Notes under the pieces: generated by a model
Database searches by the model: none
Told to the model about the DNA's origin: nothing
The model's input: the letters and a program-made list of their open reading frames with translations, nothing else
Source of the DNA: Azolla caroliniana
Taxonomy: Eukaryota; Plantae; Polypodiophyta
Direction: 5' to 3'
Length of the DNA: 64,000 nucleotides
Assembly (NCBI GenBank): GCA_043228905.1
Contig: JBHGNT010000008.1
Span: 16,616,001-16,680,000, forward strand
Shown here: positions 6,971 to 38,899 of the stretch, one piece after another
How the letters are laid out: every line of letters starts with the position of its first letter
Numbering within the stretch: position 1 is the stretch's first letter
Program-made: the position numbers and the translations under genes

Positions 6971-7395
6971 TGTCGGGAACAGTACTAAGACAAAGAGGGA
7001 ATTAGTACTAAAAGATGCGAATTAGTACTAAGAGAGTGAAGAGGGTGTAAAACTCACGAGAGAGAGAGACAGAGACAGAGACAGAGAAAGAGAGAGAATG
7101 ATGATAACAAAAGATATATTATATTATTTGAAGAGTAAGTACAAGAATAGCTATGAGGCTTAAGACTGGCGTTGAACCAATATGGTTCAAAATAATACCT
7201 TGTGCCTACTTTTATAGTGTTTTCAGGAGTACTCCTGAAGTTTCTAGAATGTTCTAGAGAAATTTGGAAATATACATCAATTCTCTATAGCGAAATAATA
7301 AATGAAAATAATATTTTTTGTATTATAATATATAGTCTAATGGCAAGGGTTAGACCCATGTAACATAAGGTCATGGGTTCGAATCTTGTGTGACA
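6971..7395 (-). repeat. 5' LTR of the chromovirus (TGTC...GACA)
   Basis: TG...CA ends, TATA near 7211, similar to the LTRs at 26474-26920 and 37768-38209. Confidence 0.8.
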
Positions 7396-7644
7396 CACCC
7401 TGAAGTGTCGACCTATATTCACTAATACTCAACTTTTTGCAAATCACTTCTAATTTAAACTCGCATGACTTTGCGAATATTCTACCTCAGTCTAGGTCTA
7501 ATATGTGGATGGACTCTTACTATTTAATCCATATGTATCATTGCCTTTTAGGCATCCTAGGTTTGAAATTTTGAGCTTCTCTCAGGTATCTTTCATCACA
7601 ATCTTAGATAAAATAGGTCTTTCTCCGTGTAGAGCTACGTATCA

Positions 7645-7729
7645 GGGGTGATAGCGCAATTGGCTAGTGTGTAGGTCTCATAACTCTTGAGATGTCCTGA
7701 GGTCGAGAGTTGAAGCCTCTGTTACCCCA
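7645..7729 (+). tRNA. Elongator tRNA-Met(CAT) with intron, probably a pseudogene
   Basis: GGGGTGATAGCGCAATTGGCTAGTGTGTAGGTCTCATA-[~11-nt intron 7683-7693]-GTCCTGAGGTCGAGAGTTGAAGCCTCTGTTACCCCA follows the plant tRNA-Met(e) layout. The T-loop/B-box is mutated (GTTGAA) and there are several C>T/G>A changes. Confidence 0.8.
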
Positions 7730-8829
7730 TCCATCAAATCATGATCTCTCCAATCATTACTTTATATCATGTCAATTTCTGTTCTTCCCTAATTTTCTTC
7801 AATGTCATGGGAACACAACACATGCTACATGGAATTTTATCCACCCTATGAGTATATCTATATTCACTACCACAACTCCTATTGCAAACCATTCCAAATT
7901 TAAGCTCGCATGACAATGTGAATATTTGCAGTCGCAATATGACTATCATGAGGGTGGTCTTTTACTTAAGCAATGTATTGCTATCATTGGTGTAAAGGCA
8001 TTGTAAGTTTGAAATTTCAAGATGGTCTCACCTATTATCTATTATCATAAGTATAAGGTAAAATTAGGAGTATCCTAGATCTACACATTAGAGTTGATGA
8101 CGCAAGTTCCTTGCGCATAGTTCTTATAACCTTGATGTATCCTCACGTGGAGAATTCAAGCCCCTCTCAAACTAAATTATCAAAAATTTCAATTGAAAGG
8201 TCACCTTAAAATCCAATTCTATGAATTTACACTGAGTTATACTGGCTTAATCCCATAAAACCAAAATTTGTGATTGAAGTGACCAAAACTTAATCTTAAA
8301 ACCAAAACATTTGATCACACACCAAATTTTACCATTGGGATGCCATTTTGAAGCCAAAATCCATGGATTTGCGGATTCACAAACAATTTGCGGCCAAAAT
8401 GTCATTTTAAACGAAATCTCACATAATACTTTGCTATTAAAATGTTATCTTAAACCAAATTTCATGATTTTACATTAAATTTTGTTAGCAATATGCAATC
8501 ACAACTAAATCTCCTCAATCTCACCAAATTCAAAAATACTCAAACCAAAATTAATTATCGAAATGTAATAATTACATGTTAATTTTGATCCGTCTACAAA
8601 AAGTGTAATTCCAAAAATATCCACAAAATCAAATATATCTATCGACTCAACAAAATATCTAATAATGCACAAGGTAACCCCATATCCTAATGATGAAGAC
8701 GATTGATCAACCTAATGAACAAAAGAAAGACAACATTGTTAGGTACAAAGGACCCAAAGAATCGCTTAAGTAAAGAAATTTGTGTTTGAAGGGCATTCTG
8801 GTAAATAGGGCTTGTAGATTTGAGTGTAT

Positions 8830-8944
8830 AATTACTTTGTAAAGTGTATTTTTTTGGACATAGGGGTAGTTTGATCAATTTGGAACTTCCAGGGGCATTC
8901 TGGTAAATAGACGAACTTCCAGGGGTATCCTGGTACTTTTCCCT
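8830..8944 (-). mobile_element. Possible Mutator-like terminal inverted repeat (single end)
   Basis: Minus strand begins AGGGAAAAGTACCAGGATACCCC with subrepeats of TTTACCAGAATGCCC. No partner TIR found. Confidence 0.35.
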
Positions 8945-10876: not shown

Positions 10877-13800
10877 TCATGTTGTTGCGTCATTCTTAAG
10901 TTCTACTCCGAAATAAATAAGTAAAGATGGGCTTTAGCAGTCATATCATCAGAACAACAAACGTTTCACATTTTCAAAGAATTCACTTTTACCTCCGGGA
11001 GGAACAAGAACTACGGGACAAGGGCAATGGTGTGAGCAATATTCACCCACACTTCCATGAAGGACACTACAAACATCATTGAGAATTGTTATTTCAAAAC
11101 ATATGCAGTTTTAAGAAAACAGGAAAGATAGATTGTGGGTTCAATCAAACCTTTGGCCCAGCCATGAAATTGCCACAAATGGCAAAATACAAACCATCTA
11201 TTTTTCTTTATTTCCTTAATGGCCTATGTTCTTGTTATTTCCCAAAATGCCCTTGATCCTTTGAGGGCACTATGGTGTTAGTCAAACAATTATATGGTTG
11301 ATCATCCTCTTTATTGCTGTTTGGGGGTTGACCAAAAGCATTTAGGGAAATATTGGAAAGATGCTTCGAGGGAAATAAAGAAAAAGTCAGGGGAGGGATA
11401 TTTTCAGGAAAAACAAATCCCCGAAAAAATGTATATCTAAAGTCATTTGCCCAGTAGAATAAAATAGATGATCAATAATAGGTAAGTAGATCAATTTCTT
11501 TTTAAACATACATACACAACTACCTTTTCACGATGCCACGTGCCGGTCTGCCCATTACTACGGCAATCGGATTGATCCGTTTCGCTTCATCCACAATCGC
11601 CTTGCCAACTTCCTCTGCACTTATAATCTGGACCTCAGTCTGGACCTAATTCCAATAGAAAACAACTTCCAAAGACATTCAAAATTTTGAAACCCTTAAG
11701 CCTTTTGACATACCCTACCACCTATTTTTGCTTCATCACTACATAAGAGAGATGATATAATCATATGTGAGGAACAAAAAGAGAAAACAATCGAATCAAA
11801 TGATTCAAAACAAAAGACATTTATTACATTTACAAAACCTGAATTTGGTAACACACTTTACAAAAATTGGAATCTGACAATGTTAAACTCAAAAGAAGAT
11901 TTACATTTCACAAAAGTCACACTTCAATAACATAAACTTTAAAAAAAACATACCATTCCAGCTTCATAAGCTTCTACAGCTAGCTTTTCCATCAGGGCTG
12001 AAGTAGACTCGAACAATGCTCCAGCTGCATTGCTCTGAGATTCTGCTTGACAAAAAAAAGAATTATTTCGTAGCAAAAATAATAATTCTCAGGAGATTTA
12101 AATCAGTTAAAAACAACCTATTGAATATATAAATCTTTCTTAGAGAACATATTTACTTTATTAATGCTCACTTTGAAGTTTACAGATCATTTTGTGCACC
12201 TCTTATAACTAAAAGATTGCTCTAGTTCTTGCTTTTCCTTAATTAAAAAATTGCTCTAAGTTACTTTTCTAATGTTTTCTCAGTTTTAGCTTTTAGCTGA
12301 TCATTATCTAGCTCTACATGGTTTCAAGTTTCAATTATAACTGTATGGAATATTTGAGGAGTCGCTTTTATAAGGATGAGATACATGTCATGATCATGAT
12401 GGAATGAATTGAAAGATTGGTTTCTTTATATGCAATTTTGATCTCTTTTTCAAGAGCTTAATATAACATGACCTTTCATTCTTTCTCTTGCAAGGAATAG
12501 GGAAAATATGACTAAATAAGTAAGAAATCATATACAAAACCTTTCAGCTACAAGAGATCATTACAAAACAACAATAAAAAAGTTAACGAGTTCCTCACGA
12601 GCATTCCAAAGGTTATTCATATAATAACCAAGGATCTATAACATTCCTGAGCAGAAACCCCCCCCTACCCACATGCCTCACACCCACTTGAATCCACCTT
12701 TTTTACAGCTACAAGTTGTAAAGGTGAGAAATGCCATTGATCAGAAATGATTGTAAAGGTTCAAGATCGTGATGGATTGGTGAATGCGTACTTTATCTAT
12801 GTCCATGGCACCTCAGTCCCACTTCTTGCAAACATTTTTAATAGAACCATATATGAGTGTTTCCCCACTAGCTGGATAGGACATATCATTGTGCCAATCT
12901 TCGAGAGTGGAGATCCCATGATATCTAACAGCTACTTGTCCAATTTATAAGGCTCAATCATAGCATCAGAATTGAGTGCTTGGGCAGAGAGAAATGACTG
13001 CAGCTTTCCAGACCAGCAATTTCTGGTCATGGCTAGCATGCTTGGAGTGAAACAAGGATGCCCACTATCACCCACTCTCTTTGGTCTTTACATAGATACA
13101 GTATCTAATAGCATAGAGAGATTGGGTGGTTCAGAGGCAAGCATAGCAGAGATAGTCATACCAATACAATTAAATGCTAGTGATATTGCAATGATCTCCA
13201 ACCCTCAGGATGAACTTCAAAGACATCTAGGTGCTTTTAAGTCATTTTGTACAGACAGACTTGTTGAAGATCCTTAATAAAACTAAAGTGATGGTGTTCG
13301 ACACAACTCAAGCATGGTACCGATATCAGAAACAAGAATTCTTCTCAGGAGAGGAAATCGTGACAGATACACTCTTTTACACATACCTGGGAGAAACATT
13401 CACCAGGCCTCGGTTCTCCTTGTCAGAAGCTGACAACGCTCAATTTTCTCCCAGATATGCACCCCTTGGTTCCCTTGAAAGACGATGTGCACATATATAT
13501 TTCCAAGAACCATAAACTAACTTGTGGTTTGATATACTTATAGCACAAAATCTTCTCTACAAAGAAGAAACTTCAGGACTGATCCTTCTTAGTGCACATA
13601 ACTGGGCAGAGACCATGGCAACATTCTAATCAATGACCAGTATCCAATTACGCAAGTTAATGGAATACAAATACTGTTCTTCTTAGAACTGGAGACATAG
13701 AGAGACGTTGTTGATAAACAACATTAAAAATACAACAGCTCATTAATCAAGAATCATCCTAACTTTCTTTAGTTCCATCACTCATACTAAAGGTCAATCA

Positions 13801-15858
13801 AGGGCTACACAAGTAGGGTCTTGACCACAACATTTGAAAGCGGTTACAAGATTGGGCAATAGCAATTTGTCATGCATATAGGCCACATCCATCTAAACCA
13901 CAACCCCATCACACTTGTCATCCACAAATAAAGGCCATTATCACTCAACCCCAAAGGTGTTTCTCTCGGCTCATCTTGGATCAGCCGATGTTGGAGGTCT
14001 TTTGATGGCAAAAGTTTCAGTCCATCTAAGTTCAGAATGTTAAATGTTTAGTTAACGAGATTCTCTGGTATATGACAGAGCTTTACTAGTTTAGTTATAT
14101 TTATTTTGGTTTGTTTGTTATCAAAGATGAGACAAAGTTTTAAGATGTATTCTCTTGTTTGGTCTCATATGCCATTTTGGCCTCTTAATAGGCGTTAACC
14201 TCTTTTTCTAAACCCATTCTAATATACCTTGGGTTATCCATACCTAAGCATGATTAAAGTGGAAAAGAATAGGGTGACCCGAGCTGATATCATTAAATTG
14301 AAAAATGACTCAGCACCACCACATCTCTTGGTAGAAAGATGGCCCACTACAAGGCACTCTTTTTACACGTGTCTTATGATGGATCTATTATCAATCCTTC
14401 TTATATGGATACACATCTATCTCAATAGCTTAGGAGTGTGATAGGATAGGTCAGGACCTCTTCACATTGGTGAAAATTTGTGCTAGGCCAACAGATCTGC
14501 ATGCAAACCTACAAAAGAATGGATATTCCAGCTGTGTCATCAGGGGGGTAGAATCATAGGAACACTATGTCTGCCACTGTGGTGTTTTCTACAAAATAAG
14601 AGGGAGATACCACAGCCTGTTCAAACAAGGCTTTGGAACATAAAGACCAACAAATGTGTGGGATTGTTTTATTAGAATTCAAGAGACATAGAGAGAAGTT
14701 GTTGATGGACAACAATACAACCACAACAGGTCATCAACAGGGACAATCATAACTTCTTTTAGCCACATCAGTCCTTATGCTACAAGTCAATCATGGACTA
14801 TACATGTGGATTCTTGACCAAGACGCTCAAAAGGGGTTACAATAGATCAGGCAATAGAAACGTGTTGTGCATGCAGGCCATGACCATTTTGACCACAACC
14901 TCATCACCCTTGTCACCAACAAATAAAGGCCATTATCATCCAGCAACATAGGTGCTTCCCTCATTTCAGATATCTCTCCATTTTGCAGTGGCCCAAGATG
15001 GAGATTTTTCAAAAAAATTAAGTTTAGTATCATAAGTTCTAGACATATAGATTCTTTATGGCCATATGTTTAGTATTTATTTTGGTTTGTTGTTCTCGAA
15101 GATGAGAAAACATTGTAAGATATAACCCTTTGTTTGGTCTTATAGGCGATTTTGACCTCTTCAAAGATGTTAATCTCTCTCTCGCTCTCGTTTCATAAAA
15201 AAAGTGTCATATATGGTTAATTACATGCCAAACAAGAATGCATCCAATGTGGTGAGTCACACAAGAAACAAATCAGCATCTCTTGCAATCTTTCATCTCA
15301 ACCTTCATAACTGCGAGCTATCTCCCATCACGAGACTCTTACAAACCCCACAAAAAATCCTTGTCATCTTTTCTTTCACGTTTGGTTTCAAAGTCCATAT
15401 TTAGCCTCCAAGGATGCTAATAGATCCATCTATTATCTGTCTGTATATTTATCTAAAAAGAACAGCATATTTACATGAAAAACTAATAGATTACACCCAT
15501 GAATCCATCTATCTATCAAAAGAACAGACCAATTTCATCAAATTTAATTTAATATATCTCAAATGAAGGGTGTCGTTACTTGGAAAGTCTATCATACATA
15601 TATCTATACAATGTCCAGCTATATATGTATGCATCTCAAAATATCAGGGCATTTATTCAGCAAGACTAACAGATTACACGTATACAACTCTGTAAGACTA
15701 ATGAATACATACATACATACATACATACATACATACATACATAGACATACATACATACATAGACATACATATATACATACACACATAATTACATACATAT
15801 ATATACATACATACATAATTATATACATATACATAGATACACAATTACATACATATAT

Positions 15859-15931
<73 letters not shown>

Positions 15932-21719: not shown

Positions 21720-22634
21720 TTTACTTCCCAAAGATATGCCATCATTCTCAAACTCATCTGATGAGGTAGAAGAGCTTTGTCAGGTCTCATCCTCTTCATC
21801 AGTTGCAACCAATGCATTGTCTTCATCCAATTGCAATCCAACCTCGCCATGATTATGACACATACTCCTTGTTCATCTTATTGTCGTCTCCGGACTCACA
21901 TTTGGAACCTTCTCTTTTAATATCTTAATTGTAGTTTGCCTAAGATGGCTTGTCTTGGTCAACAAGAAGTCATACACTAGTATGTCAATGTTATCCAATG
22001 TGAGAGTAAACATGCTCAGTAGATTCTTTCTTCTTCGCTTTCTACTCGTGCTTCTAACATCCTTCACCATCTCTAAAGAGTACTTTCCAATCAATGCATC
22101 CGGGGGAGAGGTGTGATACCAATGAACTACAATAGACTTATATTGATTGCCTTCTTCATCCTTCATTATTTCTAGAATTTTAGCAATCCAAAAAGGATGG
22201 TCCAACTCATCATTGTCAGCCAATGTTGCAACCAACATTCCAACTTGTAGCTCATGCAAACTACCTTGCAAGTTGCCATCTTGCCTCTACAGTACACTAT
22301 ATTCTTGCTCTCACGTAAATATCTCTCTATCGGGGGTGAGCTAGATTATTGAGTTCAGTATTATCTAGTGAGTGATGATAAGTCCTTAACACCATTGATG
22401 GGGCACCAATGTTCCATTGAAACAAATATTGGAGGGGCCAATGTCTAACCATGTAGTTAGGCAAAATAATATGATGGTGGTTGAAAAAGGCATCCCACCA
22501 TTCAACATTTTGATCACCAGCATACTTCTAGGTGCGCTCAATAGATTCTTATAATTCTTTATTTCTTCATCAATTCTACCACTCTTCGCCATGCTCTTTA
22601 GACTTGCACAGACTGAACAAACTATCACAAACAC
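21720..22634 (-). pseudogene. Putative DNA-transposon protein remnant
   Basis: Fragments CSVCASLK... and HPFWIAKILEI...VVHWY followed by an acidic tail. Not retroelement-like; superfamily uncertain. Confidence 0.35.
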
Positions 22635-22702
22635 ACCAAGCGCGGACTAGGACGGAGCACAGATGATGGGGCTATGAGCGACGGATGAACTTGGAGTTAG
22701 AT

Positions 22703-23123
22703 GTCACGAGGCTAGAAACTCTAGATGTTGTGAGCAACATGAGGGCATGAAGACAGAAATAAAGATCAAGGAGACAAAGATGAGGCGAAACGAGAATAAT
22801 AGATTGATGTGTCAATGACTAGTGTTGAATCCCTTGAAAGGGACCAAGAAGGTTACAAGTATTTATAGTCTAAGTTGAAGTACATGGATTAGAATATTTT
22901 GAAGAATATTCTAGAACCTTCTAGAACATTGGAACTTTCTAGATGTCTAGAGAGTATACCTAGATCACGTACATATTATACAATGATATGTAGATCAAAT
23001 ATATCTTATACAATGCTCATATGAAGATGGTTGGGCATGATGTATTGTTGATGCAAGGTTGTGAGTTCAATCCTCACCAACTATATATTTTGTGTCATTG
23101 TATCGTGACATTATCCTCCCCTT
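22703..23123 (-). mobile_element. 3' LTR (22703-23110) plus PPT of a minus-strand LTR element remnant
   Basis: Inverted termini TGTCACGA...TCGTGACA, adjacent PPT AAGGGGAGGATAA on the minus strand, and TTCTAGAA motifs as in the chromovirus LTRs. Confidence 0.7.
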
Positions 23124-23156
23124 TACAACCGCCTTTTCAAAAATGTAGTGTAGGGG

Positions 23157-23790: not shown

Positions 23791-25418
23791 TTCGAACACT
23801 TGACGTTGATGAAGTCTAGGAAAAGTAGGGTTGATGACATCACCAAGAGGTGTTGAAGATGATGGTGTGGAAGACGAAGCAATGAAGGCAATGATGTTGA
23901 GGAAGTGTCTGTGGAAGCAATGACTGTTACTATGGAAATGTTGGAAATAGAGACATAGATAAAGAGGAGAAGAAACACAGAGTTCGAGACGTTAAGGATA
24001 AAAAGAAACACAAAGACATAGATATAGAGGATGATAGAAAACATAGAGACAGGGATGAAGATCATAAGAAACACATAGATAGGGATGATGTTGATAAGAA
24101 GTACATAGATAGAGATGAAACTGGTAGGAAACACAGGGAGAAGGATGACAATGACAAAAAACGCAGAGATAGGGATGATGATGATAAGAAACACGGAAAT
24201 AGATATGTGAGGGATGAGAAGAAACAAAAAAATAGAGACGACGATGAGGGGAAAGTAAAAGCCAGAGACAACGATGAGAAGGAACTAGGAGATAGAGATG
24301 GTAAGGAAGATAGGAAACAAAGAGATGTTGATGAAGGTAACTTTGGAAGCAAGGACGACGACGAGTGGATCCACATGTGGAGATTAAATCAAAATAACGT
24401 TGTTGTGGTGTACTTTGTACACTACGTAAAATATGTGCGGAGTACCCAATTGGGTAAGTATAAAGAAATAGGAGAAATTCTACAATAATTATATTACATG
24501 CATAGGGCAGGATTTGAACCCTCTACCTCCATGTTAATGATTTTAAGCCTTATCACTATACTAGTATATTATGAGTTTTTAAAGTTATACTAAACTTTAT
24601 CCCATGTAAATATTCTAGATAAACATGATAGAAAAAGTTATTCATGCATACACACTCGAGTTAAAAGAAAAGATGTGATAGAAATCTAATCATGCACATG
24701 TAGTGTGCATGAAAACTAAAGTTAGGAAAAACATGATTTTTACATGTGATAAACTTAGACTCTTCCATCACTAAAAGAAAAAGCCATGCAACTAAAAATA
24801 GATGCAACTAAAATTAAAAGTCATTCAACTAAAAATAGATGCAAGTAAAAGAAAAAGCTATGCAACTAAAAGTAGAGGCCATGCAACAAAAAGTGGACAT
24901 GCAAATGATCAAGGGAGAACTCCATATAAAATTCCATTTTTTTTCCTACACTGATGCTCTCTCCATATTATTTTTTCTTTTCCTTCTCAGCTCCCTTATC
25001 TTATGGAAGCCATAACTGTCATAAACCCTATTTTCCCTACGGAAGCTATAACACTAAAAAGCCCTAATTTTCCCTACGGAAGCCATAACACTCATAAACC
25101 ATAATTTTCCATACGGAAGCCATATCTCTCATAAACCCTAATTTCCTTACGGAAGCCAAAAGCCCTAATTTTCCCTACGGAAGCCATATCTCTCAAACCC
25201 CTAATTTTTCTTTTCTATAAATCTCTATAAGCTAAAACTTTGAATCCCAATATTGGGACATATTGTAATTTCTTTTCCTTTGTTAATGAAAATTATTAAA
25301 TTTCTCATTTTCGTTAATTGTTAAAAATATAAAAGCACGAATGTGATGTCCTCCGGTCGAAGGCCCCGGGGTCCTGCCTCAAAGTTCACGTATCCTCGTC
25401 GTATTTCCGCGACATCTT

Positions 25419-25436: not shown

Positions 25437-25479
25437 GGCGGTAGGAAGGATTCAAGTGCTTGAAATAGAAGAATAGAAG

Positions 25480-26436: not shown

Positions 26437-29400
26437 ATTTTGAATGTGAGTGTGGGCTTGAAGCATGGGCTACTGTCATGATATGGCAAGACTCGAACCC
26501 ATGACCTTATGGTATATGGGTCGAGCTCTTAACCATCACACCATCTATTGTAATTCATAGGATATTATTTTCATTTATGCTTTATTATAAGAAAATAATG
26601 TATATTCCAGATTTCACGGGAACATTCTAGAAGTTTCAGGATTACTCCTGAGAACACTATAAAAGAAGGCACTAGGCATTATGTTGAACCAAATTGGTTC
26701 AACGCTAGTCTTAAGCCTCTTAGCCATTTTGTACTTATCCTTCACATAATATATTGGTTGTTATCATCATGTCTCTCTCTCTCTCATCCTCGTTATCTCT
26801 CTTTTCTCTTCTCTCTTTCTCTCTCTCTCGGGAGTCTTACGCAGTCCCGTCCTCTTAGTACTAATAGTACTACTCTTCTTTAGTACTAATTCCATCTTTG
26901 CTTTAGTACTATTCCTGACAGTTTGAACCAATTTGGTCTCAAGCCTAGTTGTCATTCTCCCTCATCCTCCTACCCTTTTTCCTATACAATGGCTACTATT
27001 AGCGCCCAAGAATATCAATCCGTTTTCTCCGAGCTACAGTGCCTAAAAGAAAAATTTGTTGCCTTGGAACAAGAAAACCAACGACTGATAGGGAATCTGC
27101 AACAAATCGCTCTAGAAAAACAACAAACGCAGCAACAACATGGGGAGTTAGCGTTACGGGTGCAACAACTCGAATCAGCATTGCAACAACAAGGATCAAG
27201 TCCCCAAGGATTTCATAAAGAGCCGAAGATTGGACTTCCTGTGAAATTTGATGGAATGTGATCGCAATTCAGGGGATTCCTTAATAAGGTACGATTAGTC
27301 CTCCAAATGCATCCTTCCCGATACCCCACTGATGCATCCCGAGTCGGCTTAATAGGCACGTTGCTTAGCGGCTCAGCCTTAGCATGGTTCACTTCGCTTC
27401 TAGAAAAACAATCGACCTTGCTTAATAACTTTGAAGATTTTATTAGTGAGTTTAAAGCCCGCTTTGGAGACACCGACAACATCAGGACGGCGATCAACAA
27501 GATCTGACGATTGCGTCAAGGAGATCGTCCAGCCTCTGCCTATGTGGCGGATTTCCGCCTAATCGCTTCAAATATCCCCTGGGATCATCAGGCACTAATG
27601 GAGCAGTTTCGCTATGGCCTGCGAAACGATGTTAAAGATCTACTTCTAACTTTCCCCGAAGAACCAAAGTCTCTTACAGAGGCAATCAGTTGAGCGGTCC
27701 GATGTGACAACCGCCTTTTCGAATGGCGTTCGGAATGTCAATTACAGATACCACGCTCTAGGCCGGAGCCCACTTACGTCTTAGTCGCGGCTAAACCGTT
27801 TGCACGAGACATACCTCAAGCAAATACTTCGACACCGATGGAGATTGATACCATGCGTCGACACGGCCCGTTATCGGAAGAAGAAAAGCAATGACAACGT
27901 GCAAATCGATTATGTCTTTATTGTGGTGGACCAGGGCATATTGCAATCAATTGTCCCCATAGGCCAAGAAGATAGGTAAATCAAATTGTAGCCTGTACTA
28001 AACCCGAGTCAATTCTTCCCTTAGGAGTGGCTGATAGTATTAATAGTACTAATAGAGTGTTTGATAGTATTAATAGTACTAATAGCCCAAGTATCTCAAA
28101 CAAATTTGAAATCCTCAGTCAATTAGATGAAGAGTTAAACGATTGAGTCCAGCCAAAATAGGAGTCGTTTGGTTGGACAGCCCTAGATCTGTACAGCCCA
28201 TTAGTGGTTCCATTCCCTCCAAGCAAGTTAGCAATGTGTTCCTAGCCCAAGTCATGGTTAATACTAAAAGTACTCCCCCAGTACATGTCCTAGCACTTCT
28301 AGATTCCAGAGCTAATTCTTGTTTTATGGATTGAAATTTTGCCCAAGCTTCTCAGATACCCTTAAGAAAACTTCCTTGCCCCGGATCTATAGTAGTCATT
28401 AATGGTCGTCCCATTGCTTCCGGGAATATTGTAGAAGAGTCAGAACCCATTCAAGTTATCCTAGGTAGTTTTGTGTGTAGTAGCATTTAATATAATTAGT
28501 AGTCCGGAGCATCCCATTGTCCTGGGATTACCTTGGTTTGAATTACATAATCCAAACATAGATTGGAGAATAAGAGAAGTCCGACATCGACAACCCCAAG
28601 AATCTACTCATCGAGTTTCGACCATTTCACTACGTCAATTACGCGAAGAAGGACACAAGGAGGCAATGTTCCTATTTGCAATATCAGTACATCCTTCCAG
28701 CACTATTAAGGAGGAATCCTTAGTACAACTTCTGGCGAAATATCGTCCTTATGCCGATGTATTTGACAAGGTAAAAGCCGGTACTCTTCCTCATCATCAT
28801 CCCTATGATTGTCCCATCGATCTACAACCAGGAGTAGAGCCACCATGGGGACCCATTTACAACTTGTCCCCCACCGAGTTAGAAGTCCTTCGAGCCTACA
28901 TAGAGGAGAACTTGGCAAGCGGGTTTATTCATCATTCGAAATCTCCGGCCGGTGCACCCATCTTCTTTGTCAAGAAGAAAGATGGCTCACTTCGTCTCGT
29001 TGTTGATTACTGCGGCTTAAATAAAGTCACCATCCGTAATAGGTATGCACTTCCTCTTATATCAAGTCTTTTAGAGCGAGTTAATGGTGCCAAGTTTTTT
29101 TACAAAGATTGATCTCCGAGGAGTGTATAACCTCGTGCGGATCCAACCGGGAGATGAATGGAAGACCGCCTTTCGCACGCGGTATGGGCATTTCGAATAT
29201 ACTGTTATGCCATTCGGTCTAACCAATGCACCCGCAGTGGATACAAATCCTATTCTAGCTCATGTGGATACAAAGAAACCATTCATCATGGAGGCCGACG
29301 CATCGGATTTCGCCCTCGGTAGCATCCTTTCTCAACAAGGAGATAAAGAAGAGTTACATCCTGTGGCTTTCCATTCGCGCAAATTCGATGCTGCGGAAAT

Positions 29401-29993
29401 CAACTACGAAATACATGACAAGGAGTTACTAGCCATCGTGGATTCCTTTGTGCAATGGCGGCATTTCTTAGAGGGCTCTCCACATTAGGTCATCGTCTTT
29501 AGTGATCACAAAAACCTTGCTTATTTCCAAAACGCTCGGGTGCTAAATCGACAGCAAGCTCGGTGGGTTCAATTCCTCACGCGTTTCGACTTCAAAATCA
29601 CATATCGACCGAGGAAGCAGCAAGGAAAAGCAGATGCACTATCACGATGTTCATATCTTGCACCTCGCCCTGGTGATCCAACGTTCGATAATCAAAATCA
29701 AGTAATCTTGGGACCAACACGATTGCACACAACGCGGATTTTTCACACCCCAATGGATTCCCAGATTATAGACACCATGCGTATGAGTTTGAAGACAGAC
29801 AATTTTGCTCAAGACATTCTGGCGCACATTGATACCTCTCAGGCATCCTGTTCCCAGTCTCAGCAACCAGGTATGGACTACCGACAATTTGAATATCATG
29901 ATGGTTTGTTATTCTTTAAAAAGCTTGTATATGTCCCCAATTGCTCATGTCGCCTTCAAATCGTCCAAAGGTGTCACGACACCCATATGGCGG

Positions 29994-30130
29994 TGTCGGG
30001 GTAGTTGTGGTTCGTGCGGCGAAGTCGCGGGGACTAAGGTTAAGGGGAGTTGAAGAAACTTAACTTATAATAATGCTTGTATGGTGATGATAGAATGGTT
30101 AAGGATAGTAAGAAGAAGAGTTACGAGTAA

Positions 30131-30163
<33 letters not shown>

Positions 30164-30931
30164 CGAGCATAGATAAAATATAGAGACAATGTATGATTCT
30201 AGAAAGAAGATTGAGACAAAGTATGATTCTAGAAAGAAGATTGAGACAAAGTATGATTCAAGGAACAAGAATAGTATATTAAAAGTATAATATTTTACCA
30301 ACTTTACAATCCTTGATCGCAAACTGAACACATTCTCTATCGACCCTTGATTTGAACCCACGACCTCAACTTCAAAACGAGAGGTTCTCCACCCAATGAG
30401 CTAGTCTTCTTTACTTGATTGTATTATTTTCTCACTCTTTCTTGATCATCCCTTGTTTTCCTTGCCCCTCTTTATATAAGTGTTGCCATGCATATGGTAC
30501 TGTATGGGAGCATGGCATGCATGCAATGCATGAGTTACATGTAATGCATGATCGCCATTTGGCGCACATGTATTGCACGTGATGCATTGTAGCCATCATG
30601 CTCACTTGAGCTCCCATGTATGAAAATAGATATGGGATAAGTATAATGATGAAAATGTATTCTAAAATAACTAACCTAGCTTAATGGTGTATACTTTGTG
30701 TTTGGCATACAAGGTTGAGAGTTCAAGTCTCTCAATTTTACTTAATACAATATATAGCTTCATTCTTATATCATCAAGCACATTTATTATATACTTTTAC
30801 AAATAAATAGCCTAGCCTAGTGGTATGTACATTGTACTTCGTATATAAGGATGTGGGTTTAAGTCTCTCAAATATTATTAAATACAACATTTAAGCTCAT
30901 TTTTATATCGTGAAGCACATTCTTCACGACA
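29994..30931 (-). mobile_element. Solo LTR nested in the chromovirus integrase, 4-bp TSD GCGG
   Basis: TGTCG...CGACA termini. Removing the insert and one GCGG restores ATG GCG GGA CAT (M-A-G-H of the HHCC domain). Confidence 0.8.
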
Positions 30932-31403
30932 GCGGGACATTTCAGTGTCACTAAGACATTGGATCTAGTTCAACAATTCTTTTGGTGGCCTCACATGCGA
31001 CGTTTTGTCGACGACTACATTCGGACCTGTGATGGTTGCTGCCGAGCAAAGATGCCACAACACCATCCATATGGCTTGTTGGAACCCTTACCGATTCCAA
31101 GTAAGCCGTGGCAGTCTATTTGTCATGATTTTATCACAGATCTGCCGGTCTTCAAGGGGTTCGATGCTATCTTAACCATCGTCGATCGATATACGAAGAT
31201 GGCACATTTTGTGCCGTGTACTAAGGCCATCATTAGCGAGGAAACCGCCGCCCTTGTCATGCGTGAGGTATTTCGGCATCATGGCCTCCCAGACAGTAGC
31301 ATCAGTGACCAAGGACCGCAATTTGTCTCCAAATTTTGGCAACATCTCTTCAAGATGCTCAAGGTCTCTTGCAACCTCTCCTTCGGCTACCATCCTCAAA
31401 CCG

Positions 31404-34400
31404 TGACAGGAACTACACCCTCCCTTTGAGCAACGCTCGGCCACAACCGAGCCTAGAATAAAACACAGAAAACAGGGAATGGAACACAACACGATAGAGA
31501 GAAGAGTACACAGGATGTTTACGTGGAAAACCCAAACTCGAGAAAAAACCACGACAGCCCGCAGCCCGCAAACTATCACTATGTCAGAATGTACAATAAG
31601 AAAGCACCGAGACCACAACCTCGGGCTTGCTATCTTCACCACAGGCGGCGGTTACAATCAGAGGCAACGTCCTCTTCCTCTCTCTCTCACTCTCTCTGTA
31701 CACAGTTGCGTGCTCTAATCTTGCGCCAACAAGAATGACAACAACTCTCATCATAAGTTTGCCCTAAGTCATATTTATACTAGTATGACTTTTCGGCTAT
31801 TTACAAATATAGCCACAATGGACTCTCAGAAACATATTTACAAATATGTCTCTTCATCCGGTTCTCACCGAGCTTGCATCATCCGACACTTGCTGGGTAC
31901 TCGTCATCCGGTTCTCACCGGGTCTACACCATCCGGATCTCCATAGCCGGGTACTCGTCATCCGGTTCTCACCGGGTCTGCACCATCCGTCTCTCCGTAG
32001 CCGGGTACTCGTCATCCGGTTCTCACTGGGTCTGCACCATCTGGCTCTCTGTAGCCGGGTACTCGTCATCCAGTTCTCACCGGGTCTGTTCTTCTCACTT
32101 GCCATCCGGAGGGACCTATTTCCTAACAAACTCCCCCTTCACTCCGGCATGGGATGTCTTACTAGTCCGACCCGCTTCCGGCATGCATCCAACTTGTCGA
32201 GTATCAGTACTTTGGTCAGCATATCTGACCCGTTCTCGGCCATGTGGATCTTCGTCAGCGCGAACTCCTGGTCATCTACTCTTTCCCGGATCCAGTGATA
32301 CCTTCGTTGGATATGCTTCATCCGGGAATGGTAGGCCGCATTCTTAGCAAGGTGGATGGCACTTTGACTGTCGCAATAGAGCCGATATTCATCTTGCCGG
32401 ATACCAAGCTCTCCGATGAAGTCCTTCATCCATAATATTTCCTTGCCGGCTTCCACAGTCGCCATGTACTCCGCCTGCGTAGTTGACAACGCAACCGTCT
32501 TCTGCAGCCTCGACTGCCACGAAACAGCTCCCCCTGCATATGTCATTACATACCCGGATGTAGACCGGCTGGTATCCACATCAACCGACATGTCCGAATC
32601 GGTAAAACCATCAAGTTGAGGTTTTCCAGAGCCGAATATTCAAAGTTCCCTTCAAGTACCGGAGTATCCATTTGACCGCGTTTCAGTGCTCCTTGCCGGG
32701 ATTGCTCATAAACCGGCTCACCACTCCGACTACGTAGCCTATATTCGATCGGGTACACACCATTACGTACATCAAGCTCCTGACGGTAGAGGCATATGGG
32801 ACCTTCATCATATCAGCCTTCTCTGCTTTCGTCTTCGGGCTTTGCTTACCGGATTATCTGCAGTTTGCCGGGAGTGTCGATCCGACCAGTTTCGCATCTG
32901 TCATGTTGAACCGGTGAAGTACCTTTGTCACATACTTCTCCTGTGACAGCCACAATTGCTTCACTGACCGGTTCCAGATAATATGCATCCCCATCATCTG
33001 TCTTGCTGGACCCAAGTCTTTCTTTGAGAAGGTCCGGTTGAGAGCCTTCTTCAGCATCCGTATTTTGGCTTGGTCCCGTCCGACGATCAACATGTCGTCC
33101 ACGTACAGAAGGAGTATCAGGAAGTCGCCTCCTTCGAACTTCTTCACAAACACGCAGTGATCGGCCTGCGTCTTGTGGTACCCTTGATCGGTCATGAAGG
33201 AGTTGAACTTCCGGTACCATTGCCGGGGGGCCTGCTTCAACCCATAGAGGCTCTTCTTCAACCGGCAAACCAGGTGCTCCTTCCCTTTCTCCACGAATCC
33301 TTCTAGTTGTTGCATGTAGATCTCCTCTTCTAGGTCGCCGTGAAGGAATGTCGTCTTCACGTCCAGCTACTCTACCTCGAGGTCCATGCTTGCCGCTATA
33401 CTCAGCACCGTCCGGATGGAGGTCGTCTTTACTACTGGGGAAAATATCTCGTTGAAGTCCACGCCCTTCTTCTACTGGAACCCCTTCACCACGATCCTAG
33501 CTTTGTATCTCAGGGGGTTGCCGACATCTCCCGGTTTCAACTTGTACACCCACTTATTTCAGAGTGCCCGCTTTCCTTTCGGCAACTCCACCAATTCATA
33601 CATATGGTTCTCATGCAGGGAATCCATCTCATCCTGTATGGCACTTAGCCATTTGCGGTTGTGGGTGTCATCCTTCACCTCTACGAAGCTTTCTAGCTCC
33701 CCCTCATCGGTTAGTAGCACATGCTTTGCATCCGGAAATCTCCGGGGGGCCCATCTCTCTCTGAGAGGATATTTCCGTCTTTGGGCTTCGGTAACCGGCT
33801 CCTCCATTTGCTCTTCATCCGAATCCCATTCAGGGTCTTGGCCGGTTCTGGTTTCGGCTTCCTCTACTTCTTCTTCTACCGGTTCGGTATCCTCACCGTA
33901 ACCGGCTAGTTCCTCGAGTGCTAACCGGTCTCTTCCCGGTTGGGTCTGTTCATCATAGAATTGATCCTTACCGATCGACTTAGAGTTCATTATCTTCTTC
34001 TCCGACTCCCAGTCGGCGAGCGTCTTGTCCTCCATGAAGATAATATCTCGACTCCGGAATACCTTCTTGTCGACCAGGTCCCACACTCGGTAGCCGAACT
34101 CATCGTCGCCGTAACCGAGGAATATGCATGGTCGGGTCTTTGGATCTAACTTTTCTCTCCGGTCCTTAGCTACATGCATGTACACGAGACACCCGAATAC
34201 CTTCAGATGCCGGTAGGACACTTCCTTACCGGTCCAGACTCTCTGTGGCGTGTCTCCGTCCAAGGGTACTAAGGGTGATCTATTTATCACATATGTCGCC
34301 GTCGACAATGCCTCAACCCAAAACTTCTTGGGTAGTTTTGCATGCACTAGCATACTCCGGACCCTCTCCATTATGGTCTGGTTCATCCTCTCGGCCAACC

Positions 34401-36983
34401 CGTTTAGTTCCGGCATCTTCGGCACGGTAAATTTGAGCCGGATTCTCTTCGAGCGACAGTACTCCTCGAACTGCCCCTGGTATTCACCCCTGTTATCTGC
34501 TCGAACCGCCTTCAGCTTCCAGCTGGTTTCTCTTTCCACTCTCGCGTGGAGTTCTTTGAAGACGGATAACACCTGATCCTTCGTCTTCAACGGTGTGGCT
34601 CACAGCTTCCGGTTGTGGTCATCTATGAACTTCACGAAGTACTGCAATCCGGCATGTGACTTCGTATCCACTTGACATACATCAGTATGCACCAAATCCA
34701 GTGGTGCATTACGTCTCATCGGTGGCCTCGATCGGAAGGAGGTCCGGTTTTGTTTACCGGCTAGACAATCAGTGCACTTCTCCAAGTGCACGTTCTTCAT
34801 TGGAATGAGGTTGTCGTCTACAAGCCTCTTCATCCCCTTCTCGCTCATGTGGCACAATCTCTTGTGCCACAGCTCACCGGCAGTGTCGGATGCCACGTTC
34901 ACTTCTTCCGGGCATAATCGGGCATTCATCAGGTACAACGTGTTGACCTTCCGGGCCCGAGCCACAATCAGGCTCCCTTTGCTGAACTTCATAACACCGT
35001 TCCGGATGCTACCCGTGTAGCCTTCATCATCTAGCCGACCGGTTGATATTAGGTTCAGATGAACCTCCGAAACGTGTCGGACATCCTTCAACAACAGCTT
35101 GCATCCGGTTGGTGTTGTCAGCCACACGTCTCCTATGCCGACAATTCGGCATGTACCTTCATTCCCCATCCGGACACAGTCGTTATCACCGACTGAGTAG
35201 GATGAGAAGCACTTCCGGTCCGGGGTAAGGTGGAACGACGCTCCGGAGTCGACCACCCAGGTCATCTCGTCGCCAGCAAGGTTTATCTCACTCTCCTCGG
35301 TGATGAGCATAAACTCTTCTTCACTTGCCGCCATTGCCGTTGTTCCCTTCCGGTCCGGTCCCCTCTGGTCTTTACCGTTCCAGTCCGGTGTCCGCTTCGA
35401 ATGGGTGTCACCGGTTTCCTTGTCTTTACGGAAATGCCGACAATTCTTCTGGAAGTGTCCCGGCTTGCCGCAATAGAAGCAAGTAGGCCTCCCCCTTGAC
35501 TTTGACCGTGTCCCCGACTTTTCCCGGTTCTGGGGGCTACGGTTCCTTTGTCTTCCGCGTTCCGATTCAGTAAGGAGCACTTTGGAGTCGGAGCTCATAT
35601 CCTTATCTTTCCGACGCGCCTCCTCATCTAGCAAGCTCGACTTCACTCTTGCTAGGGATAACCGTTTCCCTTCCGGCCCAGCATTGCCCAAAGTGACAAC
35701 TAACGTCTCCCAGCTATTCGGGAGGGAACCGAGTAGGAGTAGTGCTAGTACCTCATCGGTGAGAGGTACTTCCAATGATGTTGCCTGGTGTATCAGCCCC
35801 TGGAAGGAATTCATGTGCTCAACCATGCTGGAGCCATCTTGGTACCAGAATCTTACCAGCTTCCGGAATAGTGAAACCTGGTTAACAACATTTTTGTTTT
35901 GAAACATAATGTCGATTTTCTCCCAGAGCTCATGAGCCTTGCTCTCTTCATTGAAGTTGTTGTATAGGCTCATGTCGATGAAGCACCGTATGTAAGCCGT
36001 TGTCTTCATGTGCATCACCTCCCATATCGTGGCGTCGATTTTGTCCGGTCTCTTGTCCCCAAATTGAACCGGCAACCAAAGATCTTTAACCACAAGCATG
36101 TCCCTCATCTTCGACTTCCACGCCAAATAGTTGGAGCCGGTGAGTTTGAACATGCCTCCCAACGAGTCGTCCATTTTCTGTGTCGTTTCGCTCTGATACC
36201 ACTTTGACAGGAACTACACGCTCCCTTCGAACAACGCTCGGCCACCACCGAGCCTAGAATAAAACACAGAAAACAGGGAATGGAACACAACACGATAGAG
36301 AGAAGAGTACATAGGATGTTTACGTGGAAAACCCAAACTCGGGAAAAAACCACAGCAGCCCATAGGCCGCAAACTATCACTATGTCAGAATGTACAATAA
36401 GAAAGCACTAAGGCCACGACCTCGAGCTTGCTATCTTCACCACAGGCGGAGGTTACAATCAGAGGCAACGACCTCTTCCTCTCTCTCTCACTCTCTCTGT
36501 ACACAGTTGCGTGCTCTAATCTTGCGCCAACAAGAATGACAACAACTCTCATCATAAGTTCGCCCTAAGTCATATTTATACTAGTATGACTTTTCGGCTA
36601 TTTACAAATATAGCCACGATGGACTCTCAAAAACATATTTACAAATATGTCTCTTCATTCGATTCTCACCGAGCCTGCATCATCCGGCACTTGTTGGGTA
36701 CTCGTCATCCGGTTCTCACCGGGTCTTCACCATCCGGATCTCTGTAGCCGGGTACTCGTCATCCGGTTCTCACCGGGTCTGCACCATCCGTCTCTCCGTA
36801 GCCGGGTACTCATCATCCGGTTCTCACCGGGTCTGCACCATCCGGCTCTCCGTAGCCGGGTACTTGTCATCCGGTTCTCACCGGGTCTTCACCATCCGGA
36901 TCTCCGTAGCCGGGTACTCGTCATCCAGTACTCACCGGGTCTGTTCTTCTCACTTCCCATTCGGAGGGACCTATTTCCTAACA
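31404..36983 (-). mobile_element. Full-length degenerate Ty1/Copia element (LTRs 31404-32128 and 36205-36983) nested in the chromovirus integrase
   Basis: PBS-iMet TGGTATCAGAGC (36190-36201), gag CCHC, PR DSGA, INT, RT YVDD, RNase H and PPT next to 32129. Several frameshifts and stops. The LTRs contain 54-bp tandem repeats. Confidence 0.95.
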
Positions 36984-38899
36984 GACCAATGGGCAGGCGG
37001 AACAAACAAACCAAACGCTGGAGCAATATCTCCGATGTTTCCTGAGTTATCAACAGGACGATTGGGCCGAGATTCTCCACTTTGCGGAGTTTGCGTATAA
37101 TAATGTTGTTCACTCCTCGACTCGAGTCTCCCCATTCTACGTTTATACCGGTTCTCAACCTCGTTGGTCGGTGATCGACACCTCGGAGCTACCTACCAAT
37201 CCTCATGTCGGGGATCATTTGGAGAGACTATGCAAGATCTAGACGGATCTCTCGACTCATCTTCGTCATGCTCAACAGACACAAAAGACTTACGCGGATC
37301 ATCATCGACTTCCCTCCTCTTTTGCCATCGGAGATCGAGTATGTGGCTCTTATGTCGTCACATCAAGACTACTCGACCGTGCGACAAGTTGTATTACCGG
37401 TAAGGTTAATGATGTCACGTTTCGCCTTGATCTTCCTTTGCATCTTCGGATACATCCAATCTTCCATAGTTCTCTTCTGGAACCTTATAAAGCAAACACT
37501 ACTCCCGATCGTGTTACACCACCGCCGCCCCTGCTTGAGTTTGACGCTGGCTCGGAGAATGAAGTTGCTGCCATCCTCGACTCCAAATTTGTTCGCAACA
37601 AACTTTACTATTTGGTCGATTGGCCTGAGCGAACGTACTTGGGAGCCTGTCAAGTATGTCGCCAATGCTCAGGATCTTCTTGTTGATTTTCACCGATAGT
37701 ATCCCAATAAACCCGGTCCTCAATCAACATCAACTTGTTCCACTAGTCGTCTTAAGGGGGGGGATAGTGACATGATATGGCAAGACTCGACCCATGACCT
37801 TATGGTATATGGGTCGAGCTCTTAACCATCACACCATCTATTGTAATTAATAGGATATTATTTTCATTTATGCTTTATTATAAGAAAGTAATGTATATTC
37901 CAGATTTCACTGGAACATTCTAGAAGTTTCAGGATTACTCCTGAGAACACTATAAAAGAAGGCACTAGGCATTATGTTGAACCAAATTGGTTCAACGCCA
38001 TTCTTAAGCCTCTTAGCCATTTTGTACTTATCCTTCACATAATATATTGGTTGTTATCATCATCTCTCTCTCTCATCCTCGTTATCTCTCTTTTCTCTTC
38101 TCTCTTTCTCTCTCTCTCGGGAGTCTTACACAGTCCCGTCCTCTTAGTACTAATAGTACTGCTCTTCTTTAGTACTAAATCCATCTCTGCTTTAGTACTA
38201 TTCCTGACAGCTACAAGGAGTAGTCAAAGTCGATATTCAAGTGAGGTCTAGTGAAGACAAACCTAGATTGATGAAAGAAGGAAGACTAAAGTGCGTTAAC
38301 CATGGCGATGGTCGAAATGAAGGTAGCACATGTATGATGCATGAAGGGTTATGCTTCGGGAAGGCAGAAGAGGACATGAAAACCAAATATGGCAGTGCAA
38401 GGCTCAAACGAAGGATTTGGTGGTTTGGATGGTCTCCATGGTTATGGTGGAAAGAATGGTCATGGTGGCATTGGAAGAAGAGAGATAAGGAGCCAACGAC
38501 TTGGTTCAAGGTAGATCTTTATCATAGATAGTTAGCTTATGAAGGAAAGAAAATATTAGGACAAGGATTAAAGATTTCAACTAGAAGGATGCAACTGAAT
38601 AACACAATTGGCACATACCGGTGGATGTGCATGTTTAGTGGGGGTGAATGTCGTGTAAATCTTCTAACACTATGTAATAATAATAATAATAATAAAATAA
38701 GTACTTTATATTAGCTTAATGGCATGTTATAAAAGATAAATGTTTCAGAAGATAGGGAAAATAGAATTATGATTTATCCCACATATATAGGAAACTTAAG
38801 GCTCTAGCTATATAAGCACCTTGAGATCCCTCATTTTTCATTTGTGCTAAGAACACTTTGGCCACTTTGTCTTGGTGGATGATGGTGGTTAAGTTCCCA

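What the first reader, a model, noticed from the sequence alone, without database searches (positions are those of the whole stretch)
7330..37840. Dissimilar LTRs each carry a tRNA-like Pol III (A-box/B-box) cassette, mostly antisense near the 5' tip
Seen at six places. 7333-7387: TAGTCTAATGG...GGTTCGAATC. 26482-26545 and 37776-37836: reverse complement TGGTGTGATGG...GGTTCGAGTC (one base deleted in the second copy). 23030-23078: T-arm GTGAG-TTCAATC-CTCAC. 24505-24565: reverse complement TAGTATAGTGA...GGTTCAAATCC. The solo LTR 29994-30931 has several copies. Where LTR polarity can be read, the cassette points outward and lies within roughly 10-250 bp of the 5' end. Known: TFIIIC-bound tRNA genes act as chromatin barriers, and Cassandra TRIMs carry 5S Pol III promoters in their LTRs. 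Inference: these LTRs may use built-in tDNA mimics as insulators or anti-silencing modules, or to make antisense/tRF-like RNAs.
Basis: partly seen in the sequence, partly recalled or inferred. Interest (0 to 1): 0.8.

Follow-up and report, generated by a model that had tools for sequence, protein, structure and literature searches.

The report
Backward tRNA promoter at retrotransposon tips
A whole branch of protein-coding jumping genes in a non-seed plant, likely a moss, keeps the two promoter boxes of a tRNA gene, but not the tRNA's shape, pointing outward at the tip of each end repeat, where they likely bind the host's tRNA-gene machinery and may shield the element's own promoter from silencing, a barrier role not yet described in plants.

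Summary
The cassettes are real. Five A-box/B-box pairs with at most 1 mismatch and tRNA spacing (32-33 nt) lie in the window, against 1 in 8 shuffled windows. The six sites are not six independent LTRs: 7333, 26489 and 37783 belong to one Tcn1 chromovirus lineage. In LTRs fetched through the integrase protein, blind to the cassette, 45 of 50 from one clade carry it antisense, 10-117 nt from the 5' tip. None of the 50 carries it in sense, and 0 of 17 outside the clade carry it. The boxes are better conserved than neighbouring DNA, while the acceptor and anticodon stems pair at chance. So promoter DNA is kept, not a tRNA. Two Phygy-type LTRs carry cassettes too, and one subfamily has a second copy inside pol. 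No SINE hallmarks were found. Closest known: Helenus/Cassandra TRIMs, which are tiny and non-coding; these elements encode gag-pol. Function is untested; the best guess is a TFIIIC/Pol III barrier guarding the LTR promoter. The scan noted Helenus-type LTRs and antisense tRNA-like units in fungal Gypsy elements elsewhere, but not this arrangement.

The parts
26474..26920 (+). 5' LTR of Tcn1-type chromovirus element G1 (TG...CA; HSE-like motif at LTR position 147, TATA at 185, self-priming segment at 216-229)
   Evidence: many contigs in 3 of 4 runs diverge just before 26474
26489..26543 (-). antisense A-box/B-box cassette, LTR position 16-70, 1 mismatch, spacer 33
26921..37767 (+). G1 internal region: no tRNA PBS, 14-nt self-priming complement, decayed gag-pol with integrase and chromodomain, PPT; interrupted by the solo LTR and a copia element
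37768..38209 (+). 3' LTR of G1 (96.7% to the 5' LTR; 5-bp TSD GCTAC around the element)
37783..37836 (-). antisense cassette in the 3' LTR, one base missing at the B box
6971..7395 (-). 5' LTR of sister Tcn1 element A (76.8% to the G1 LTRs; internal region runs to about 1140)
7333..7386 (+). antisense (outward) cassette, LTR position 10-63, 0 mismatches, spacer 32
22614..23110 (-). LTR X, Tcn1-like by PPT junction and TTCTAGAA repeats, next to 48-bp and 30-bp tandem repeats with no Pfam match; left end approximate
23020..23074 (+). outward cassette, LTR position 37-91, 4 mismatches (3 in the A box), intact 5-bp T-stem
24401..25414 (+). LTR Y, Phygy-type (followed by a tRNA PBS and a gag-like ORF 25477-26436); 5' tip at 24401 or 24434
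24510..24563 (-). antisense cassette in LTR Y, 1 mismatch, spacer 32
29994..30931 (-). solo LTR Z inserted in the G1 integrase, 4-bp TSD GCGG (NCGN, Phygy-like); polarity read from TATA and termini
30813..30866 (+). outward cassette Z2, LTR position 66-119
30677..30730 (+). outward cassette Z1, LTR position 202-255; tandem duplicate of Z2
30348..30403 (-). sense cassette Z3, LTR position 529-584, downstream of the TATA box

Best explanation
An ancestor of one Tcn1 chromovirus clade likely captured a tRNA- or SINE-derived type-2 Pol III promoter backwards at the outer tip of U3; its descendants keep the A box, B box and tRNA spacing while the tRNA fold is lost, and the module likely works as DNA, binding TFIIIC/Pol III to form a nucleosome-poor barrier between the flanking heterochromatin and the LTR's own Pol II promoter. 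Shown: position, orientation, clade-wide presence, box-specific conservation, loss of cloverleaf pairing, an AT-rich stretch upstream of the A box. Inferred: TFIIIC binding; TFIIIB loading on the AT-rich stretch that faces the enhancer and TATA box about 60-200 nt further in; barrier or anti-silencing effect. Because U3 is copied into both LTRs at each transposition, every new copy would carry the shield between its promoter and the insertion site, useful for a chromodomain element that likely lands in heterochromatin. The outward direction would keep Pol III from running into the Pol II promoter (inferred). Phygy-type LTRs and one pol linker show further copies, by separate capture or by LTR exchange (not resolved).
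For: Presence: 45 of 50 clade LTR tips have 3 or fewer mismatches antisense, 0 of 50 in sense, 0 of 250 shuffles, 0 of 17 LTRs outside the clade. Tree of integrase/chromodomain C-termini: one branch (100/100) holds 36 positive and 4 negative rows, and 13 of 13 rows outside are negative. Spacers are only 32 (19) or 33 (26). In 27 representatives under 85% identical, pairwise identity is 0.62 (A box), 0.72 (B box), 0.67 (9 nt before B, 5 nt after A), against 0.42 (mid spacer) and 0.44-0.45 (upstream); T54, T55 and A58 are 27 of 27 while position 59 is free, the B-box pattern. Acceptor stem 60 of 161 and anticodon stem 50 of 120 pairs, chance 0.41; the 15:48 tertiary pair holds in 13 of 24. Upstream DNA is 83.5% AT, matching the AT-rich TFIIIB site described in PMC13578239 (passages). 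High-coverage contigs have fewer mismatches than low-coverage single copies (1.67 vs 2.25, p = 0.03, weak, near-copies included). tDNA barriers need intact A box and TATA in fission yeast (PMC2040200, passages). RLG1 of P. patens has a chromodomain and sits in heterochromatic islands yet is transcribed (PMC7466625, passages; identity with G1 not tested).
Against: No binding, chromatin or expression data. [quoted passage not shown] Barrier activity in fission yeast is independent of orientation (PMC2040200), so a barrier alone does not explain the outward direction; among possibly separate origins the count is only 4 antisense to 1 sense. The A box is imperfect: position 10 is G in only 6 of 27 and T in 14 of 27. 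The most conserved block (positions 44-58) extends beyond the minimal B box, which RNA pairing could also explain. Related Tcn1 elements do without it (0 of 17; also SM-Tcn1 of Selaginella, read by eye). The copy inside pol is not at a boundary. All positive loci come from one series of assemblies, so host breadth is unknown.
Confidence: 0.45

Rival explanations
1. The cassette is an active Pol III gene whose antisense RNA is the product: short RNAs or read-through into the PPT and integrase end would tune the element's own silencing or copy number.
For: Complete promoter geometry and AT-rich upstream DNA. From the 3' LTR a T4 stop comes within about 64-105 nt in 15 of 23 representatives. Retroviral LTRs are known to hold Pol III small-RNA cassettes (foamy viruses; search listing and abstract starts only). 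Other scan notes report antisense tRNA-like plus hairpin units in fungal Gypsy elements (unchecked).
Against: No conserved product: the B box lies 9-62 nt from the tip, T4 inside the LTR in only 11 of 24, and predicted 3' LTR transcripts run 319-1090 nt in 8 of 23. No cloverleaf for RNase P/Z processing; no tRNA call at the tips in 47 loci by ARAGORN or 12 loci by Rfam.
Confidence: 0.2
2. The selected thing is RNA pairing: on the element's genomic RNA, 3' U3 is complementary to the D arm and the variable loop/T arm of a host tRNA, which would bind there to aid packaging, dimerisation or strand transfer (as recalled for HIV-1 U3-R and Ty3).
For: It explains the antisense direction and the U3 position directly. 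The best conserved block is a contiguous 15 nt (positions 44-58), longer than the B box. Other notes on this genome report tRNA copies at PPT sites (unchecked).
Against: These elements appear to self-prime (14-nt complement, no tRNA PBS; 83% of Tcn1 self-prime), so no tRNA primer needs docking. Positions 12, 13, 57 and 59 vary as in a promoter consensus, no T-to-C wobble change is seen at 54 or 55, and the 3' T-stem and acceptor side are not kept. The HIV precedent is recalled; my search for it returned 0 papers.
Confidence: 0.15
3. It is a neutral relic of one old SINE or tRNA insertion in an ancestral LTR, carried along by descent, or kept for an unrelated DNA role such as a Pol II factor site.
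For: One origin plus a few losses explains the Tcn1 pattern. Alignment around the best conserved block can inflate contrast. Kojima 2024 notes that 'not a few' Repbase LTRs hold tRNA-like pieces.
Against: Both boxes and their spacing survive while spacer and flanks fall to near background across families only 60-94% identical in protein. C56 is kept in 23 of 27 although often in a CpG. Further copies occur in Phygy-type LTRs, as a tandem duplicate, and in-frame inside pol.
Confidence: 0.12
4. The cassette is a homing signal: the integrase is guided by TFIIIB/TFIIIC as in Ty3, so elements insert next to tRNA genes and next to each other.
For: Element A's tip lies 250 nt from a tRNA-Met-like relic. 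One locus (L014) holds a tRNA-Asp.
Against: Only 1 of 47 loci has a tRNA gene, in a rearranged contig 2.2 kb from the match. Nested insertions in the window do not fall beside cassettes. The integrase has a chromodomain, linked to heterochromatin targeting.
Confidence: 0.08

Closest known systems
Helenus (TRIMp3), Kojima 2024, PMC10886601; abstract, Methods, Results and Discussion read (parts 1-4 of 6) plus a term search; supplements not read
   Same: tRNA-derived sequence in both LTRs, conserved around boxes A and B, not a functional tRNA; probably born by SINE insertion into an LTR.
   Different: Helenus elements are non-coding and 311-1263 bp, and the cassette is proposed as their own promoter. 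Here the elements are about 5.5-kb gag-pol chromoviruses with a Pol II TATA box, and the cassette points away from the element, so it cannot transcribe it. The paper's main text has no hit for 'antisense' or 'moss'; its only plant case is Selaginella.
Cassandra TRIMs (5S rRNA-derived Pol III promoter in the LTRs; as described in PMC10886601 and PMC12786077, passages)
   Same: Pol III promoter built into plant LTRs and copied with U3/R.
   Different: 5S type-1 promoter that transcribes a non-autonomous element; here a type-2 tRNA promoter, outward, in coding elements.
Tcn1 clade chromoviruses and Phygy non-chromoviruses (Neumann et al. 2019, PMC6317226, passages and supplementary file 5; Novikova et al. 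2010, PMC2864245, passages and supplementary file 3)
   Same: G1 and A: chromodomain integrase, 5-bp TSD, self-priming. Y and Z: NCGN 4-bp TSD (Z), tRNA PBS and gag shared with the window's 41157-48632 element (Y).
   Different: The passages read mention no tRNA-like promoter in the LTRs; the SM-Tcn1 LTR has tandem repeats there instead. Two large supplements of Neumann et al. could not be read.
tDNA/TFIIIC chromatin barriers of yeasts (Scott et al. 2007, PMC2040200, passages)
   Same: A box, B box and upstream AT-rich element at the edge of a region to be kept active.
   Different: Those are host tRNA genes shown by experiment; this is a transposon-borne mimic with no experimental support, in a kingdom where the function is not described (PMC13578239).
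Foamy virus LTR Pol III microRNA cassettes (search listing only)
   Same: Pol III unit inside the LTR of a coding retroelement.
   Different: They make defined hairpin RNAs; no conserved hairpin or terminator follows the cassette here.

Membership tests
Helenus / TRIMp3 | tRNA-derived sequence with conserved A and B boxes in both LTRs | tested here: met
Helenus / TRIMp3 | short non-coding element (TRIM, under about 1.3 kb) | tested here: not met
   gag, RT, RNase H, integrase and chromodomain between the LTRs
Helenus / TRIMp3 | Pol III promoter placed to transcribe the element itself | tested here: not met
   antisense in 45 of 50, sense in 0 of 50; one sense copy in solo LTR Z
Tcn1 chromovirus (elements G1, A) | Gypsy domain order with C-terminal chromodomain | tested here: met
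   (PF00385 on the closest homologues, 89% identical)
Tcn1 chromovirus (elements G1, A) | 5-bp TSD and self-priming instead of a tRNA PBS | tested here: met
   G1: TSD GCTAC, 14-nt complement; reference values
Tcn1 chromovirus (elements G1, A) | phylogenetic placement with reference Tcn1 RT-RH-INT | not tested
   the tree holds no named reference; the REXdb FASTA was too large to read
Phygy (LTRs Y, Z) | 4-bp NCGN TSD | tested here: met
   Z: GCGG on both sides. Y: ACGT before one candidate tip only, other flank absent
Phygy (LTRs Y, Z) | tRNA-Trp PBS and non-chromovirus polyprotein | tested here: inconclusive
   Y shares its PBS and gag (31%, E 2e-28) with the 41157-48632 element; the tRNA-Trp assignment is recalled; Y has no pol here and Z is a solo LTR
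tRNA-derived SINE insertion | own target-site duplication and A-rich tail | tested here: not met
   7 of 8 cassettes have no repeat of 8 nt or more; one 9-mer belongs to the tandem duplication in Z; no A6 run within 200 nt
functional tRNA gene | cloverleaf pairing | tested here: not met
   acceptor 60 of 161, anticodon 50 of 120, chance 0.41; ARAGORN 0 in the window
tDNA/TFIIIC chromatin barrier | TFIIIC/Pol III occupancy and block of heterochromatin spread | not testable with these tools
   needs ChIP and mutant reporters

The most novel reading that the evidence does not exclude
Plant retrotransposons carry their own portable tRNA-gene chromatin barrier: a TFIIIC/Pol III site at the LTR edge, captured more than once (Tcn1 LTR, Phygy-type LTRs, a pol linker), lets heterochromatin-targeting elements stay transcribed and scatters thousands of Pol III factor sites over the genome.
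Probability: 0.35. Interest if true: 0.88.

Novelty: new variant of a known kind. Interest (0 to 1): 0.7.

Why it matters
[quoted passage not shown] This finding gives a 55-bp element with defined box positions whose mutation tests both questions at once. It also extends tRNA-derived LTRs from tiny non-coding TRIMs to coding elements, where the cassette cannot be the element's promoter. If bound in vivo, a very abundant LTR family would be a major source of TFIIIC sites in its genome, with consequences for factor titration, genome folding and false tRNA annotation.

Tried and rejected
No whole genome is held for this window, so genome-wide orientation and insertion-site tests could not be run. 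Viral contigs gave no relatives. No RNA holder was listed among the sequencing runs, so expression was not examined; both read-laying runs used DNA contigs, whose depth is not a copy number. Host lineage: a search with exon 1 of the neighbouring gene found no homologue; the host is inferred as a non-seed plant from Tcn1 and Phygy-type content only. Common or separate origin of the Y, Z and Tcn1 cassettes: mid-spacer identity is saturated (0.21-0.40 to Tcn1, 0.43 within Tcn1), so undecided. Rejected: functional tRNA; recent SINE insertions; chance; a general LTR feature. The self-priming segment also looks like part of a B box but is explained by its complement after the 5' LTR. Rows dropped: of 80 loci, 9 had no detectable LTR start and 6 had under 125 nt of LTR; 3 of 27 representatives with more than 4 mismatches were left out of the stem and terminator counts but kept in the conservation table. 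The metagenome scan kept the best 80 of 281 relatives (76 loci), so it leans to close families. I first split the loci into two sets by contig series; the tree recovered the same split afterwards. Literature searches that found no description of this arrangement: (0 papers); the library lacks most subscription papers and Repbase reports.
Full report
Setting. The window is a nest of LTR retrotransposons beside a host gene with large introns. No whole genome is held. The content (Tcn1-type chromoviruses, Phygy-type elements) points to a non-seed plant, likely a moss, by the distributions in Neumann et al. 2019 (PMC6317226, passages); the host was not identified.

Observation. A scan with recalled A-box and B-box consensus motifs and any spacer of 28-65 nt finds five pairs with at most one mismatch, all with spacers of 32-33 nt, the geometry of a class I tRNA gene; eight shuffled windows gave one such pair in total. 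The remaining named sites are there with more damage: 30348-30403 (2 mismatches), 37783-37836 (one base missing), 23020-23074 (4 mismatches). A profile trained on relatives returns seven LTR cassettes and one tRNA-Met-like relic in 64 kb, and 1, 0, 0 hits in shuffles. ARAGORN calls no tRNA in the window; Rfam gives 29.6 bits to the relic at 7645-7729 and 24.7 bits (below threshold) to 23027-23085.

Which LTRs. Element G1 runs 26474-38209 on the plus strand with 96.7% identical LTRs, a 5-bp TSD, a PPT, a chromodomain integrase and a 14-nt self-priming complement in place of a tRNA PBS, the Tcn1 profile. Element A (5' LTR 6971-7395, minus strand) is a sister family at 76.8%. So three of the six sites are one lineage. 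LTR X (to 23110, minus) has a Tcn1-like PPT junction and TTCTAGAA repeats. LTR Y (to 25414) is followed by a tRNA PBS and a gag 31% identical to that of the non-chromovirus element at 41157-48632; solo LTR Z has a 4-bp NCGN target duplication, the Phygy signature. Y and Z show no BLAST similarity to the G1 LTRs. Z has two outward cassettes from a tandem duplication and one in sense. Copia LTRs and the other Gypsy LTRs in the window lack the cassette.

Fixed part of the LTR, not an insertion in a few copies. Contigs of four DNA runs from four coded organisms pile on the G1 LTR at summed depths two to three orders above the flank, and 67-81 contigs in three of the runs diverge just before 26474 with low agreement, as expected for many insertion sites abutting the tip. 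The bin holding the B box is the deepest of the LTR in two of the four runs. In LTR Y the cassette bins are as deep as the rest of the LTR in two runs and deeper than the rest in the two more distant organisms; contigs of other organisms span the X cassette up to 23110. Seven of eight cassettes have no flanking direct repeat of 8 nt or more and none has an A-tail.

Relatives chosen blind to the cassette. An alignment of six integrase/chromodomain C-termini retrieved 76 metagenome loci (best 80 of 281 relatives) and 4 loci from genome bins. After dropping 9 without a detectable LTR start and 6 with under 125 nt, 48 loci plus 2 window LTRs formed one set and 17 loci another. In the first, 45 of 50 have an antisense pair at 3 mismatches or fewer, 0 of 50 in sense, 0 of 250 shuffles; in the second 0 of 17 on either strand, also over 600 nt. 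The B box ends 10-63 nt from the tip and spacers are only 32 or 33 nt. A tree of 55 rows puts 36 positive and 4 negative rows on one branch (100/100) and 13 negative rows plus 2 outgroups outside. By eye, the four negatives are decayed, deleted or disrupted versions. Both LTRs of full-length relatives carry it (L007). SM-Tcn1 of Selaginella shows none by eye. All positives come from one series of assemblies, many are near-copies, and the uniform direction is one inherited event.

What is conserved. Among 27 representatives under 85% identical, pairwise identity is 0.62 in the A box, 0.72 in the B box, 0.67 in the 9 nt before B and the 5 nt after A, but 0.42 in the mid spacer and 0.44-0.45 upstream. 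T47, T54, T55 and A58 are invariant; positions 12, 13 and 59 are free. Against this, the 5' half of the A box is weak (G10 in 6 of 27). Acceptor and anticodon stems pair at chance (0.37 and 0.42 against 0.41); the outer T stem is at 0.53 and the D stem, which overlaps the A box, at 0.64. Upstream DNA is 83.5% AT, 12 of 20 long enough LTRs have TTCTAGAA heat-shock-like motifs further in, and a TATA box follows. A T4 terminator lies inside the LTR in 11 of 24. Thus promoter motifs are kept and tRNA structure and product are not.

A second capture. In one subfamily (L007, L008, L010-L013) a different antisense cassette, with 0-3 mismatches, sits in-frame in the protease-RT linker of pol. The other linkers scanned have 4 or more mismatches. 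With Y and Z this suggests repeated gain, but saturated spacers cannot separate independent capture from LTR exchange.

Mechanism. The cassette faces outward, so it cannot be the element's promoter as proposed for Helenus. Its place between the flank and the Pol II promoter, its reduction to factor-binding motifs and the lack of a conserved product fit a DNA-level role best: TFIIIC and probably Pol III occupying the LTR edge and limiting the spread of heterochromatin (0.45). Fission-yeast tDNA barriers need the A box and TATA but not a given direction (PMC2040200, passages), so the direction needs a further reason, such as avoiding collision with Pol II, or is historical. Rivals are an antisense Pol III RNA (0.2), pairing of the genomic RNA's U3 with a host tRNA (0.15; precedent recalled, search blank), a neutral relic (0.12) and insertion homing (0.08; 1 of 47 loci has a tRNA). 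No step beyond sequence was tested.

Comparison and novelty. Helenus (PMC10886601, parts 1-4 of 6 read) is the nearest class and fails two membership features: these elements code for gag-pol and the promoter points away. That paper notes that other Repbase LTRs hold tRNA-like pieces without describing them, so such matches may have been seen before. Searches listed no paper describing an antisense type-2 promoter at Tcn1 or Phygy LTR tips; two large supplements of PMC6317226 and the supplements of PMC10886601 were not read and may bear on this. A 2026 review says tDNA barriers have not been described in plants (PMC13578239, passages). Earlier scan notes cover Helenus-type TRIMs and antisense tRNA-like units inside fungal Gypsy elements; look-ups by sequence, place and words found no note on this arrangement. 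Verdict: a real, selected feature; a new variant of tRNA-derived LTR modules; function open but directly testable. Interest 0.7.

Noticed in passing
window 7645-7729 (+), with a diverged repeat at 7858-8165: tRNA-Met-like relic with an intron-sized insertion (Rfam 29.6 bits), 250 nt from the tip of element A; the region 7413-7720 is repeated at 67%, suggesting an old tandem unit. The isotype is my recalled reading.
   Followed up: partly
L007:2953-3005 (-); also L008, L010-L013: A second antisense A/B cassette in-frame inside the protease-RT linker of pol in one Tcn1 subfamily; perfect boxes in L007.
   Followed up: yes
window about 55230-55295: The intact Gypsy element 54793-64000 (1853-aa and 884-aa ORFs) appears to have a tRNA 3'-arm-like sequence where the PPT should be, matching other notes on this genome.
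   Followed up: no
window 23111-24400: Segment next to LTR X with 48-bp and 30-bp tandem repeats and no Pfam match; multi-copy in four runs. Possibly a non-autonomous Tcn1 derivative.
   Followed up: partly
window 38650-39760 versus LTR Y: Two LTRs about 90% identical in their 3' parts but with unrelated U3 regions; only Y has the cassette, the other has a lone A-box-like motif. Suggests U3 exchange between families.
   Followed up: partly
window 18831-18865 (-): Lone B-box-like fragment 86% like a Tcn1 cassette piece (L040), outside any recognised LTR.
   Followed up: no
window about 10930-16333 (-): Host gene in four exons that looks like a universal stress protein with a poly-His N-terminus (family recalled); the first intron is about 4 kb.
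   Followed up: partly
window 40350-41050: Palindromic TAGCTA-rich tandem array with many inverted repeats, inside the 38650 element.
   Followed up: no
L014:128-201 (+): A tRNA-Asp gene next to rearranged Tcn1 RNase H fragments, possibly an assembly chimera.
   Followed up: partly
L077-L080: Tcn1-like eukaryotic retrotransposon contigs sit inside bacterial genome bins, likely contamination.
   Followed up: no
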